64,000 bases of DNA, taken from Bdellovibrionales bacterium RIFOXYD12_FULL_39_22. GTDB taxonomy: Bacteria > Bdellovibrionota > Bacteriovoracia > Bacteriovoracales > Bacteriovoracaceae. Below, piece by piece: positions 33,557-36,461 of this stretch (position 1 is the first letter of the stretch; each line of letters starts with the position of its first letter). A program made the position numbers and the translations under genes. The notes beneath the pieces were generated by a model. It was not told the DNA's origin, ran no database searches, and saw only the letters and a list, made by a program, of their open reading frames with translations. The stretch covers positions 1 through 64,000 of the forward strand of contig MEQL01000035.1 of NCBI GenBank assembly GCA_001770205.1. Reading direction: 5' to 3'.

Positions 33557-33745
33557 GAAGTATCCTTGTTAAATGATAGAGCGATATTTGAAAACGGGCT
33601 AATCTAATATCGCTTTTTTCTTAAAGTCAATTTACAATTTTTCGATCCTCTGTAAAAAAAATATTGACGGGACAAATTTACAACTAAAAAAAATACTTCT
33701 AACATCGTCCGATAAGCATTTAAGTGGTCAACACGAGGAGTATTT

Positions 33746-34240
33746 GTGGATGAAGTGATCAATGAAAATTTTTGGAGAAGATGTGGTAGTTGTAAGAAGG
33801 AAATTAAGTATGGAGCATTTTATCAAGCGTGCAGCGTTTCTAGTTGTCGGAAATTAATATTTTGCTCAGTAACTTGCTGGGATGTTCATGTTCCCGTGAT
33901 GAATCATAAAAGTGCTTACGCTGAAGAGCGAGTGGCGCCCCAAAAGCAGCAATTGCTTGCCCAATCCATATCTCAAGGGGCCGCTTTGACAACTGAACGG
34001 GCCGCCCGTCGAATATTAATTCAGACACCGAAAGTGCCAAATGAGCAAGAGGCAAATGCGGATGATATTTTAATTGTTGCTTCAAAGCTAAAATCTTTTG
34101 TTAAGTCAAAATATGATATGAATACCTCTGCAAGCGTTTTTGAGCGCTTATCAGATATTGTAAGAAGAACAACTGCTGATGCATGTGAGCGAGCGGGCGC
34201 AGATGGCCGAAAAACAGTAATGGATAGAGACTTTGAATAG
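33746..34240 (+). CDS. Bacterial histone: N-terminal ZZ-type zinc finger + C-terminal histone fold
   Basis: Eight candidate Zn ligands (C13, C16, C29, C34, C40, C44, H48, H54). aa 107-164 ILIVASKLKSFVK..MNTSA..LS......A.ADGRKTVMDRD matches the Bdellovibrio Bd0055-type histone fold, with the RKTVxxxD L2 signature. Confidence 0.88.
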   Translation: MDEVINENFWRRCGSCKKEIKYGAFYQACSVSSCRKLIFCSVTCWDVHVPVMNHKSAYAEERVAPQKQQLLAQSISQGAALTTERAARRILIQTPKVPNEQEANADDILIVASKLKSFVKSKYDMNTSASVFERLSDIVRRTTADACERAGADGRKTVMDRDFE

Positions 34241-35108
34241 ACGTATTACCATAATAAAATTTTGTGGCCATGGGGAAGAGCTGAAAGTTTTCTTGCACAA
34301 AAACAAGGATGGACTTTTTTTTATCCCTCAATTTGCCGGTGAACAAAGCTTGATAGAGGTGCTGCATTTTAGATCAGAAAATGAGCTACCGGCAACTGAA
34401 GGGGGCGGAGATTTTTATCCTTTGCTGACAGTTGAGCGACTGGTTCCTACGCAGGGAGGTGCTCTAACGGAGGCCTTGTCACAGTTTTGGCCTTTTTTAA
34501 AAAATTTCTCCCCTGTTCTTGCCAATGTTGAAATTCCTCGACAGTTTTTATCACGTGATCTGCGGGATAAGCTAATTACAGGCCAGGAGGAGATTGTCTT
34601 TTTTGGCGGGGCCTTCAATCCTCTTCATAATGGACATTTGGAGTGCTTGCGGCAATCCCCCAATAAAAATGTGGTGGTTATACCGGATAAAAATCCGTGG
34701 AAGGAGGAATCTGGCCGGACAGCTGAAAAAGATCATGGCTGTGCTTGGCAAGCTTATCTAAATTTAAGCGAAAAACTTAAGACTACCTCCGGTGTTTATC
34801 CTGGATTTATTGGGAAGAAAGAATCTAACCCCACGGTCTCCTGGATAGATAATGTGGTTGCAAAGCGCAGAGCACTTTTGATTGGGGATGATAATTTTAT
34901 GAACTTTGAGCGCTGGACTGGTTATAAGAAAGTTTTACGCAGCATACAGGCACTTTATGTAGTGCCGCGTTTATTTAAACATGAAGAATTGGTGCAAAAA
35001 CGATCAATGCTTTTACAAGAAAATGGCCCAATTAAAATTGATATTTTACAAGAACATTCTTACCAGCAACTTTCATCCTCGGCCCTTCGCCGCAATGAGG
35101 TTAGTTGA
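34233..35108 (+). CDS. NadD-like HIGH-motif nucleotidyltransferase with N-terminal extension
   Basis: FFGGAFNPLHNGH, LLIGDDNF, LSSSALR; TTG start overlaps the histone stop. Confidence 0.8.
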   Translation: MNRRITIIKFCGHGEELKVFLHKNKDGLFFIPQFAGEQSLIEVLHFRSENELPATEGGGDFYPLLTVERLVPTQGGALTEALSQFWPFLKNFSPVLANVEIPRQFLSRDLRDKLITGQEEIVFFGGAFNPLHNGHLECLRQSPNKNVVVIPDKNPWKEESGRTAEKDHGCAWQAYLNLSEKLKTTSGVYPGFIGKKESNPTVSWIDNVVAKRRALLIGDDNFMNFERWTGYKKVLRSIQALYVVPRLFKHEELVQKRSMLLQENGPIKIDILQEHSYQQLSSSALRRNEVS

Positions 35109-35153
35109 CATATAAGTTGACGAAGGTTGTTCTCCTTGCGACTATTAACAGTG

Positions 35154-36461
35154 ATGAGAATTGTCTATTTTTTCGTTTTTTATTTTTTCATTTTTAATCT
35201 TTTGGCAACGCCAAAAGTGTCTATATATGATCCGGATACGGATGATGAAAAAAAAGAACAACGCGTATATACTTCGGTGTCAGATAATGATGGTGATCAT
35301 CAAGCTTTGACGGTGATTGTCTCTTCTTCTGCTGGCTCCAGTTCCTCCGCACCAGTGGAGGTTTTTATCCCCATCAATGAACATAGCGCTGATTATGGAG
35401 ATGAGGATCGAGCAGATTATACCGCTCTCTCGCAACCAGAGCAGATGCCTAATTTTTCCACTGGAGGACATGTTCATCTAACTTTGACGGTGTTAAATGA
35501 TGCAGGGGCGGACCGTTATTTTCGAGCGCTGGTAAAAAATGATACGAACTATGTTCCTTTTGAATTACATTCCCATGTTGATGCTACGATAGATAATGAT
35601 GAGCATAATAGACTTTATGATATCGATTTCTCTCTTGATTCGGGAGATGCGGGAGCTATTTGCAATATTTCTCCGCAGTGCGAAGTTAGAAATGGGACTC
35701 AATATAAAGATGTCTATTTTGTTTTGGCCAGTAGTTTAGATACTGAGTATAGCGCTTCGGAGCTTCCGGCCAATGGAGTCTATTTTAGATTTCGTTTTAG
35801 CAATCAGTTAAATGCGGCCACGGTCACTTTAACTGATTTGCAAGCTTACGATGAGCAACTAAAATTAATCTACAGCGGCCCACTGGTTACCAATTTTTAT
35901 AAAACTTTTTTATATAGATATGACGATACTAGTTCAGAGGGTAGTGGTACTACTCAGTTTTCCACAATAGGTGCCGGAGAGATAGTCTCTTACCATTCGG
36001 CCAATACTAGCGGAGCGATTTTTATAAGAAACTTGATAAATGATACTGATTATAATTTTGCTCTTGGATTTATCGACAAGTATCAATTTGTAAATGGAGT
36101 CTCTAATTCCAAAATTGCGCGTCCTGAAAATATTGAAGAATTTTTGAACAAAAAGGCCTGCTTTTTTCTATCAGCGGGATTTAAGCAAGATCATTATGTT
36201 TTAGAATATTTTAGAAAATTTAGAGATGAATCACTTCTAACGAATTCACTCGGCCAGCGCTTTGTTTCTTGGTATTATTCGTTTGCTCCACACTACGCTA
36301 AAATAATTTGGGATAGTCCCTTTTTGAGTTTCTTAGTAAGAGCGTTGGGTTTTGTGGCATATTTTTTTAGCAGGTTTTTTATTGGTATTGTGATCGCGGG
36401 ATTCTTGATTATTTCAATCTACAATGTTTATCGCCGCCGCCGCCTGCATAGTACTTTCTAA
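35154..36461 (+). CDS. Exported protein with CFI-box-CTERM-like domain, TM helix and basic tail
   Basis: KACFFLSAGF...FRKFRDESLL...GQRFVSWYY..AP..A..I, then TM and RRRR. Confidence 0.78.
   Translation: MRIVYFFVFYFFIFNLLATPKVSIYDPDTDDEKKEQRVYTSVSDNDGDHQALTVIVSSSAGSSSSAPVEVFIPINEHSADYGDEDRADYTALSQPEQMPNFSTGGHVHLTLTVLNDAGADRYFRALVKNDTNYVPFELHSHVDATIDNDEHNRLYDIDFSLDSGDAGAICNISPQCEVRNGTQYKDVYFVLASSLDTEYSASELPANGVYFRFRFSNQLNAATVTLTDLQAYDEQLKLIYSGPLVTNFYKTFLYRYDDTSSEGSGTTQFSTIGAGEIVSYHSANTSGAIFIRNLINDTDYNFALGFIDKYQFVNGVSNSKIARPENIEEFLNKKACFFLSAGFKQDHYVLEYFRKFRDESLLTNSLGQRFVSWYYSFAPHYAKIIWDSPFLSFLVRALGFVAYFFSRFFIGIVIAGFLIISIYNVYRRRRLHSTF

What the first reader, a model, noticed from the sequence alone, without database searches (positions are those of the whole stretch)
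33746..34240. Bacterial histone fused to a ZZ-type zinc finger
Residues 107-164 (34064-34240) closely follow the Bdellovibrio histone Bd0055 pattern as I recall it (VLVVTSKVKKLIK..MNTSAE....LS........A.ADGRKTVMARD). Residues 13-54 supply eight Cys/His ligands, joined by a ~50-aa flexible linker. This matches the little-studied second Bdellovibrio histone type (Bd3044-like). In eukaryotes ZZ domains read protein N-termini, including histone H3, so a reader-plus-histone in one chain hints at regulated bacterial chromatin. Its function is inference.
Basis: partly seen in the sequence, partly recalled or inferred. Interest (0 to 1): 0.85.

Follow-up and report, generated by a model that had tools for sequence, protein, structure and literature searches.

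The report
Zinc-finger bacterial histone, known family
This gene encodes a small DNA-binding histone with a zinc finger at its front end, a member of the "ZZ histone" family of predatory bacteria that was described by computer analysis in 2024 but has never been tested at the bench.

Summary
ORF 33746-34240 (+, GTG start, GAGGAG ribosome site) encodes 164 aa. Residues 107-163 align without gaps to Bdellovibrio histone HBb/Bd0055 (E 3.6e-9; model rmsd 0.9 A). Residues 13-54 carry eight Cys/His that are invariant in 59 of 59 aligned homologues.

Schwab et al. 2024 (PMC11390915) defined "ZZ histones" with this architecture. They raised the H3-tail-reader idea and judged it unlikely.

- This genome (94.6% complete) has no other detectable histone fold. 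The same holds for 11 of 39 ZZ-histone genomes in its family, one of them a single-contig genome. The finger therefore cannot be a reader of a partner histone here.
- "ZZ" is only a fold-level label. Solved ZZ domains are the best structural matches (Z 4.2-5.0), yet 0 of 59 members hit Pfam ZZ, and the weak sequence hits are to FCS/MYND-type fingers.
- The finger plus linker also occurs without any histone fold in 18 of 301 sampled genomes of the phylum.

Most likely mechanism: an HBb-like dimer that bends DNA, carrying two tethered zinc fingers of unknown ligand. Verdict: a new member of a known, untested family; modest interest.

The parts
33677..33705 (+). Promoter-like site (TTTACA, 17 nt, TAACAT) about 40 nt upstream of the start codon
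   Evidence: Consensus scan only, 9 of 12 matches. Not evidence of function.
33735..33740 (+). Shine-Dalgarno-like GAGGAG, 5 nt before the GTG start
   Evidence: Read directly from the sequence.
33746..34240 (+). ZZ-histone gene, 164 aa plus stop
   Evidence: ORF list and translation. Full-length homologues at 50-72% identity.
33773..33940 (+). N-terminal two-zinc cross-brace finger domain (residues 10-65). Ligands are C13, C16, C29, C34, C40, C44, H48 and H54, followed by the conserved A59-E-E61...P65 strand
   Evidence: The eight ligands are invariant in 59 of 59 sequences. AF2 pLDDT is above 95 in the full-length model. The best solved folds are ZZ domains at Z 4.2-5.0. The split into a C4 and a C2H2 site follows Schwab 2024 and was not measured here.
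33941..34063 (+). Linker (residues 66-106): predicted helix 67-79, then a low-confidence stretch
   Evidence: AF2 pLDDT is 60-65 for residues 80-105. Linker length is 14-70 aa (median 40) across 59 homologues.
34007..34021 (+). Conserved basic-hydrophobic linker motif R88-R-I-L-I92 (family consensus PRRxxV)
   Evidence: Alignment consensus. R89 is conserved in 73% of the sequences. A similar ILRR-type motif ends 10 of 10 inspected finger-only proteins. Its function is unknown.
34064..34237 (+). C-terminal alpha3-truncated histone fold (residues 107-164) of the HBb / bacterial-dimer type, with R155-x-T157-xxxx-D162
   Evidence: PDB sequence search. Foldseek to 9ezz, 8fvx and 8cmp gives TM 0.86-0.92, rmsd 0.9-1.0 A and 45% identity. 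The homodimer model scores 0.88 against 0.00 for the controls.
34233..35108 (+). Downstream NadD-like adenylyltransferase gene. It overlaps the histone stop by 8 nt and is probably co-transcribed
   Evidence: PF01467 and TIGR00482 match below the curated cut-off. It is the best TIGR00482 match in the genome. No terminator-like site lies between the genes. The adjacency recurs in 6 of 38 ZZ-histone loci and near 6 of 6 finger-less loci.

Best explanation
The gene encodes a ZZ histone, the Bd3044 class of Bdellovibrionota. Shown by computation: the C-terminal 58 residues are an alpha3-truncated histone fold of the HBb (Bd0055) type. Inferred: two such folds pair in the usual antiparallel handshake. 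The dimer then binds the DNA backbone at the minor groove without sequence preference and bends it, as shown experimentally for HBb. Each dimer carries two N-terminal fingers on flexible tethers of about 40 residues. Each finger probably holds two zinc ions in a cross-brace: C13/C16 with C40/C44, and C29/C34 with H48/H54. My working guess is that the finger is a docking module for a non-histone partner, protein or nucleic acid, which the histone dimer holds on DNA. That would make this a low-copy architectural adaptor, not a bulk packaging protein. In this genome it is the only histone-fold protein, alongside two HU/IHF-family genes. Rough odds: family identity 0.95; DNA binding and bending by the dimer 0.7; the docking role of the finger 0.3.
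For: Histone part:
- Ungapped alignment to HBb, E 3.6e-9.
- The model superposes on HBb-DNA structures at rmsd 0.9 A, TM 0.90, 45% identity.
- Of the ten HBb residues that Hu et al. 2024 rank as the main DNA contacts (passages read), nine are identical here: N126, R161, S113, T157, S128, K114, K116, K156, K120. T8 is A112.
- The RD clamp is kept (R155, D162, D153).
- A homodimer of residues 104-164 scores ipSAE 0.88 against a best control of 0.00. The runs agree in at least 98% of contacts and pLDDT is 93. That mark was reached by 20 of 30 proteins solved as pairs and 1 of 23 solved as single chains. HBb dimers are solved, so this pass may reflect likeness only.

Finger part:
- The eight ligands are invariant in 59 of 59 sequences.
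- AF2 pLDDT is above 95.
- ZZ domains fill most of the top ranks of the exhaustive fold search: Rsc8 Z 5.0, Nbr1 4.9, Ada2 4.7, BIG 4.5, HERC2 4.2, p62 4.2.

Family: 581 homologues. The architecture and ligand scheme match the published description.

Independence from other histones:
- No second histone fold in G000.
- 11 of 39 ZZ-histone genomes in the family sample have only this one match.
- 5 of 5 of those re-checked at E<=1 still do, including a single-contig genome.

Autonomy of the finger: finger-plus-linker proteins without a histone fold occur in 18 of 301 sampled genomes of the phylum. In 10 of 10 inspected, no histone gene lies within 2 kb.
Against: - Nothing here is experimental. 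There are no zinc, DNA-binding or expression data for this protein or any ZZ histone. Searches found only computational descriptions.
- The B. bacteriovorus member is reported as weakly expressed, so a global chromatin role is doubtful.
- HBb dimer-interface L38 is T142 here, and DNA contact T8 is A112.
- The finger's partner is a guess. No conserved operon partner exists beyond a lineage-limited NadD-like neighbour (13 of 45 loci including this one).
- Fold matches are weak: Z<=5.0, all Foldseek E>=0.2. FCS/TRASH (3.9), HIT (3.7) and MYND (3.3) fingers lie within 1-2 Z units.
- The genome is 94.6% complete, so a 60-aa singlet histone gene could sit in a gap.
Confidence: 0.6

Rival explanations
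1. Reader-plus-histone. The finger reads the N-terminus or tail of another histone, as eukaryotic ZZ domains read H3, giving regulated bacterial chromatin.
For: The best structural matches are ZZ domains that bind protein N-termini: p62, HERC2, ZZZ3, BIG, KCMF1. In the family sample, 28 of 39 ZZ-histone genomes do carry further histone-fold genes.
Against: No other histone fold was found in this genome with four different searches. None was found in 5 of 5 re-checked relatives, one of them a single-contig genome. Schwab et al. 2024 report that the pocket residues are not conserved and that only half of ZZ-histone proteomes have a second histone. The finger also exists without a histone fold. 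None of the 59 members hits Pfam ZZ.
Confidence: 0.07
2. Second nucleic-acid-binding head. The fingers themselves bind DNA or RNA, so a dimer has four nucleic-acid contacts and bridges or loops DNA instead of only bending it.
For: The finger domain is net basic (+2 here, median +4 in 59 homologues), with conserved K17 and K18 beside the first zinc knuckle. The linker carries a conserved basic motif, R88-R89. Sub-threshold sequence hits are to FCS-type fingers; from my own recall, some of these bind nucleic acid. Finger-only proteins end in a basic ILRR-type motif.
Against: No nucleic-acid-binding structure stands out among the fold matches; ribosomal zinc ribbons appear only at Z 3.2-4.3. No test was run.
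Confidence: 0.25
3. Metal or redox switch. The Cys-rich finger senses zinc or oxidants and alters DNA binding by the histone dimer.
For: There are six Cys and two His ligands. The first site has the spacing C-x2-C...C-x3-C. Language-model neighbours include 'TRASH domain' clusters (score 0.87, lead only) and a NosL copper-chaperone fold.
Against: The finger and the histone fold are joined by a variable 14-70 aa linker, which argues against tight allosteric coupling. All these matches are below the reliable range.
Confidence: 0.08

Closest known systems
ZZ histones (Schwab et al. 2024, Nat Commun 15:7950, PMC11390915), including the B. bacteriovorus HD100 member, which I infer to be Bd3044
   Same: The architecture is the same: an N-terminal two-zinc finger (a C4 and a C2H2 site), a linker, and a C-terminal bacterial-dimer-like alpha3 histone fold with RxTxxxxD. 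The phylum is the same. The ligand spacing matches the published example D0LYE7 for C1-C2, C2-C3, C3-C4 and H-H.
   Different: This protein has the short finger variant, 4 residues fewer between C34 and C40: 42 residues from the first to the last ligand (regex span) against 46 in most representatives. The third ligand pair is C-x3-C throughout my alignment, whereas the paper lists C51/C53. Here it is the only histone-fold gene in the genome. I did not align it directly to D0LYE7 or Bd3044, because no tool returned those sequences by name.
HBb / Bd0055, bacterial dimer histone (PDB 8cmp, 8fvx, 9ezz, 9f0e)
   Same: 45% identity over 57-58 residues, rmsd 0.9-1.0 A. Nine of ten main DNA-contact residues and the RD clamp are kept. 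It is predicted to form the same homodimer.
   Different: HBb is a free singlet of about 60 aa, abundant and probably essential. This protein has a 106-residue N-terminal extension with a zinc finger, and its B. bacteriovorus counterpart is weakly expressed.
Eukaryotic ZZ domains (p62/SQSTM1, HERC2, p300, ZZZ3, Ada2, Rsc8; Pfam PF00569)
   Same: Both are two-zinc cross-brace folds. ZZ domains fill most of the top ranks of the exhaustive structure search (Z 4.2-5.0, 49-60 aligned residues).
   Different: There is no sequence-level membership: 0 of 59 family members hit PF00569 at E<=1, and a finger profile finds no PDB chain at E<=10. The spacing of pairs 2-4 (C-x4-C, C-x3-C, H-x5-H) differs from the usual ZZ C-x2-C / H-x2-3-H, which I recall and did not test. 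The N-terminus-binding pocket is reported as not conserved.
FCS / MYM / TRASH, MYND and HIT fingers
   Same: The conserved F39-C40-S41-x-x-C44 motif and the C-x2-C...C-x3-C first site. Weak Pfam hits: zf-FLZ in 9 of 59, zf-MYND in 6 of 59, zf-FCS in 2 of 59. Fold matches: TRASH 2das Z 3.9, HIT 2n94 Z 3.7, MYND 4a24 Z 3.3.
   Different: All hits are below the curated cut-offs. These folds rank below ZZ domains. FCS/TRASH fingers bind one metal, whereas this one has eight conserved ligands.

Membership tests
ZZ histones (Schwab et al. 2024) | N-terminal finger with eight conserved zinc ligands (C4 + C2H2) | tested here: met
   C13 C16 C29 C34 C40 C44 H48 H54 are invariant in 59 of 59 aligned homologues. 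Which ligand goes to which site is taken from the paper.
ZZ histones (Schwab et al. 2024) | C-terminal bacterial-dimer-like alpha3-truncated histone fold with RxTxxxxD | tested here: met
   HBb match E 3.6e-9. Foldseek TM 0.90, rmsd 0.9 A. R155-K-T157-V-M-D-R-D162 is read.
ZZ histones (Schwab et al. 2024) | Full-length homology to other members in Bdellovibrionota and Myxococcota | tested here: met
   581 hits, with source names such as Bacteriovorax sp. and Bacteriovoracaceae. 107 full-length matches in 301 sampled genomes of the phylum. Direct alignment to D0LYE7 or Bd3044 was not done.
ZZ histones (Schwab et al. 2024) | Actual binding of two zinc ions | not testable with these tools
   Needs metal analysis of purified protein.
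Bacterial dimer histones (HBb / Bd0055 type) | Histone-fold homodimer | tested here: met
   Model only: ipSAE 0.88 against a best control of 0.00, contacts agree in at least 98%, pLDDT 93. The mark was reached by 20 of 30 solved pairs and 1 of 23 single chains. HBb dimers are solved, so the pass may come from likeness.
Bacterial dimer histones (HBb / Bd0055 type) | Conserved DNA-contact residues of HBb | tested here: met
   9 of 10 are identical; T8 is A112 (alignment, residue list).
Bacterial dimer histones (HBb / Bd0055 type) | Free-standing singlet of about 60 aa | tested here: not met
   164 aa with a 106-residue N-terminal extension. It is therefore filed under ZZ histones, not bacterial dimers.
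Eukaryotic ZZ domain (Pfam PF00569) | Match to the family profile | tested here: not met
   No PF00569 hit for this protein at E<=10, nor for any of 59 homologues at E<=1.
Eukaryotic ZZ domain (Pfam PF00569) | ZZ fold (two-zinc cross-brace) as the nearest solved structure | tested here: inconclusive
   ZZ domains rank first (Z 5.0-4.2), but TRASH 3.9, HIT 3.7 and MYND 3.3 are close. All Foldseek E-values are 0.2 or higher.
Eukaryotic ZZ domain (Pfam PF00569) | Acidic pocket that binds a free protein N-terminus | not tested
Schwab et al. report the pocket as not conserved.
FCS / MYND-type fingers (PF04570, PF06467, PF01753) | Match to a family profile above its cut-off | tested here: not met
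   Only sub-threshold hits: zf-FLZ in 9 of 59 (best E 0.014), zf-MYND in 6 of 59 (0.1), zf-FCS in 2 of 59 (0.41).

The most novel reading that the evidence does not exclude
The zinc finger with its linker is an autonomous module of Bdellovibrionota. It occurs alone in some lineages, ending in a basic ILRR-type motif, and ZZ histones are fusions that park this module on DNA. In lineages such as this one, where the ZZ histone is the only histone-fold protein, it would be the cell's sole histone. Its built-in partner-binding or metal-sensing head would then give a minimal form of regulated histone-based chromatin that needs no second histone.
Probability: 0.15. Interest if true: 0.6.

Novelty: new member of a known kind. 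Interest (0 to 1): 0.3.

Why it matters
Bacterial histones were recognised only recently, and HBb is the one well-studied case in this phylum. The zinc-finger class is widespread here: 107 full-length matches in 301 sampled genomes of the phylum. Yet the papers I could search hold no experimental data on it. This window adds no new kind of protein. It does give a clean natural test case: a genome in which the zinc-finger histone has no histone partner. That rules out the attractive 'histone-tail reader' idea for this lineage and redirects the question to what the finger binds. The finger-only relatives offer a way to study the finger apart from the histone.

Tried and rejected
- A sequence profile of the finger (alignment A2) against all PDB chains gave 0 hits at E<=10, so no solved relative is detectable by sequence.
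- Pfam and NCBIfam scans of the protein gave nothing above cut-off: Rhodanese_C E 0.025, archaea_histone E 0.034.
- Search for a singlet histone in the own genome. Tried: tblastn-type search with the histone domain, PF00808 (best other hit 17.3 bits, below cut-off, inside a 294-aa ORF), PF09123 (none), and an HMM of 120 singlet histones against all six-frame ORFs of 35 aa or more (next hit E 0.058). None was found. The assembly is 94.6% complete, so absence is not proven.
- Conserved operon partner. Clustering the neighbours of 45 loci gave only the NadD-like gene (13 of 45) and lineage-local genes, so I draw no functional inference from context.
- A split-gene explanation for the finger-only proteins is rejected: no histone-fold ORF lies within 2 kb in 10 of 10 loci.
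- Expression: no RNA holder is listed among 9 runs holding the stretch.
- ESM Atlas neighbours scored 0.86-0.87 (TRASH, zf-FCS, DUF3330), below the reliable range. I used them as leads only.
- Earlier notes of this scan by place and by sequence returned nothing.
- Supplementary figures of Schwab et al. (HMM logos, pocket comparison, distribution) were not opened. They may bear on the ligand numbering and on whether finger-only proteins were noted.

Full report
**Observation.** The window holds an ORF at 33746..34240 on the + strand, 164 codons plus stop. It starts at GTG, preceded by GAGGAG with a 5-nt spacer, and a promoter-like site lies at 33677-33705 (consensus match only). The window has about 39% G+C. 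The product has exactly eight Cys/His between residues 13 and 54: C13, C16, C29, C34, C40, C44, H48 and H54. Its C-terminal stretch, 107-163, aligns without a gap to the solved Bdellovibrio bacteriovorus histone HBb/Bd0055 (8cmp E 3.6e-9, 8fvx E 4.7e-9). Weaker matches are the Leptospira histone HLp (9qt0, 5e-4) and the archaeal HTkC (9f2c, 2e-3) (names).

**Is it more than chance?** The protein has 581 relatives at E<=1e-3 in the word-indexed search. Most are full-length, 150-170 aa and 50-72% identical, and the few source names are Bacteriovorax or Bacteriovoracaceae. The exhaustive search finds 578 cluster representatives. In an alignment of 59 full-length members, the only invariant columns are the eight ligands plus R155 and T157 of the histone loop. 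Finger and histone fold are conserved to a similar degree, while the linker varies from 14 to 70 residues.

**Structure.**
- AF2 with that alignment gives mean pLDDT 87.3. The finger (about residues 10-70) is above 95, the histone fold 90-97, and residues 80-105 are at 60-65.
- The histone part superposes on HBb and HBb-DNA structures with TM 0.86-0.92, rmsd 0.9-1.0 A and 45% identity.
- The ungapped alignment gives query residue = HBb residue + 104. Of the ten residues that Hu et al. 2024 rank as the main DNA contacts of HBb (passages read), nine are identical here. T8 is A112.
- The R51/D58/D49 clamp is R155/D162/D153.
- Interface residues L31, I35, L38, V11 and I59 correspond to L135, V139, T142, L115 and F163.
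- A homodimer of residues 104-164 scores ipSAE 0.88 (three runs: 0.87, 0.88, 0.88) against a best control of 0.00. Contacts agree in at least 98% and pLDDT is 93. That mark was reached by 20 of 30 proteins solved as pairs and 1 of 23 solved as single chains. HBb dimers are in the PDB, so this pass shows likeness rather than independent proof.

**What kind of finger?**
- By sequence it belongs to no curated family. This protein gives no Pfam ZZ hit at E<=10, and none of the 59 members does at E<=1.
- The weak hits across the 59 members are Rhodanese_C (11), zf-FLZ/FCS (9), zf-MYND (6) and zf-FCS (2). This fits the conserved F39-C40-S41-x-x-C44 motif.
- A profile of the finger finds no PDB chain at E<=10.
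- By structure, Foldseek puts p62, HERC2 and BIG ZZ domains first, but only at E 0.2-0.9, with MYND, TRASH and HIT fingers just behind.
- The exhaustive VIA search puts ZZ domains at ranks 1-8 (Rsc8 Z 5.0, Nbr1 4.9, Ada2 4.7, BIG 4.5, p300 4.4), with HERC2 and p62 at 4.2. TRASH scores 3.9, HIT 3.7 and MYND 3.3.
- The ESM Atlas gives the same mixture below its reliable range.
- "ZZ-type" is therefore a fair fold-level label for a two-zinc cross-brace finger, but not family membership.

**Literature.** The architecture is already published.
- Schwab et al. 2024 (PMC11390915; passages read) define "ZZ histones": an N-terminal ZZ-type finger with a C4 and a C2H2 site, plus a bacterial-dimer-like histone.
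  - They compare the finger with HERC2, p300 and ZZZ3 and raise the H3-tail-reader idea.
  - They then discount that idea, because the pocket residues are not conserved and only half of the proteomes with a ZZ histone have a second histone.
  - They report very low expression of the B. bacteriovorus member.
- Hocher et al. 2023 (passages) describe Bd3044 as the longer, less conserved second histone, present in 37% of Bdellovibrionota genomes.
- Hu et al. 2025 (passages) list ZZ histones as one of five alpha3 subfamilies, and HBb and Bd3044 as the two histones of B. bacteriovorus.
- That Bd3044 is the ZZ histone is my inference from these three papers.
- A 2025 preprint reports that bd3044 transcripts peak late in the growth phase (passage).
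- Full-text searches for "ZZ histone" and variants found four papers, three listed, all from the same two works. I found no experimental study of the class.

*1. No histone partner in this genome.* The genome (G000, 62 contigs, 94.6% complete) has no other detectable histone fold. Tried:
- a search with the histone domain;
- PF00808, whose only other hit is 17.3 bits, below cut-off;
- PF09123;
- an HMM built from 120 singlet histones (found) against all six-frame ORFs, which recovers only this gene at 9.7e-29, the next hit being E 0.058.

The genome does have two HU/IHF-family genes. In a sample of 101 genomes of the same family, 39 carry a full-length ZZ histone, and 11 of those 39 show no further histone-fold match at E<=1e-3 (my tally). 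Five of the eleven were re-searched at E<=1 and still show only the ZZ histone, including a single-contig genome that is 99% complete. The other 28 also have singlets or doublets; the doublets are the known Bacteriovorax type (Marinov et al. 2025, passages). A histone-tail reader and a heterodimer with a Bd0055 ortholog are therefore not available explanations in this lineage.

*2. A short finger variant.* Four residues are missing between C34 and C40, so the first-to-last-ligand stretch is 42 residues against 46 in most representatives (regex spans). The third ligand pair is C-x3-C in all 59 aligned members.

*3. The finger also occurs without a histone fold.* In a sample of 301 genomes of the phylum, 126 have a match at E<=1e-30:
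- 107 are full-length;
- one is cut by a contig end;
- 18 cover only the finger and linker, 15 of them in one family.

I inspected 10 of the 18. All encode the finger, the conserved WAEE...AP strand and a linker, and end in a basic-hydrophobic motif such as ILRR. None has a histone-fold ORF within 2 kb, and none of the seven I scanned has a Pfam family. A related motif, R88-R-I-L-I92 (consensus PRRxxV), sits in the linker of the ZZ histones.

*4. Finger-less forms in the same locus.* Six genomes of the family carry linker-plus-histone genes without the finger. All six lie near the same NadD-like gene that follows the ZZ histone here.

**Context.** The gene diverges from a carboxyltransferase / biotin-carrier operon. 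Its stop is overlapped by 8 nt by a NadD-like adenylyltransferase gene, which is the best TIGR00482 match in the genome. No terminator-like site lies between the two genes. This adjacency is seen in 6 of 38 other full-length loci and near 6 of 6 finger-less loci. No other neighbour recurs widely. I read it as inherited synteny and probable co-transcription, not as a functional link.

**Mechanism.**
- Shown by computation: an HBb-type fold, an HBb-like dimer model, retained DNA-contact residues, and eight conserved metal ligands in a confident cross-brace model.
- Inferred from HBb experiments: non-specific minor-groove backbone binding and DNA bending.
- Guessed: the two tethered fingers dock a non-histone partner.

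The rivals are direct nucleic-acid binding by the mildly basic finger, a metal/redox switch, and the histone-tail reader. The last is the least likely here.

**Verdict.** This is a new member of a known, experimentally untouched family. Interest is modest. It rises only if the finger-only relatives and the histone-partner-free genomes lead to the finger's ligand.

Noticed in passing
window 34233-35108 (+): NadD-like adenylyltransferase with an extra N-terminal region of about 120 aa. Its TTG start overlaps the histone stop by 8 nt. It is the best TIGR00482 match in the genome but scores 47 bits against a cut-off of 112. In relative L009 the equivalent N-terminal region carries what looks by eye like a Nudix box (GGFIEKDE...REL.EETGL), which would suggest a Nudix-NadD fusion that has decayed here. 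The Nudix reading was not tested with a profile.
   Followed up: partly
loci L055-L064 (e.g. L056:1941-2354:-), genomes of another family of the phylum: A family of small proteins of about 105-130 aa. Each consists of the same zinc finger and linker and ends in a basic ILRR-type motif, with no histone fold in the gene or within 2 kb and no Pfam family. Found in 18 of 301 sampled genomes of the phylum.
   Followed up: partly
family genomes, e.g. G013:C3:915506-915790, G086:C1:393954-394187 (L042-L047): Linker-plus-histone genes that lack the zinc finger, in six genomes, all near the same NadD-like gene. They look like ZZ histones that lost the finger.
   Followed up: partly
proteins P0242, P0244, P0253, P0254, P0266, P0281, P0297: Representatives of 216-274 aa with the finger and two GRKT-type histone-loop motifs. 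They may be zinc-finger histone doublets. This was judged from a motif count only.
   Followed up: no
protein P0374 (241 aa; alignment): The same finger at the N-terminus, followed by a C-terminal part that looks by eye like a type II secretion pseudopilin (DPWGKEY motif). It could be a different fusion partner for the finger or an assembly artefact. Not tested.
   Followed up: no
window 35127-36461 (+): A 444-aa ORF with hydrophobic ends and no Pfam match. It is conserved next to the NadD-like gene in three relatives (L022, L045, L046).
   Followed up: no
family genomes (e.g. G033:C30:15445-15831, G018:C9:79335-79766): Many relatives carry tandem histone folds in one ORF of about 135-190 aa. 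These are the histone doublets already described for Bacteriovorax (Marinov et al. 2025).
   Followed up: partly
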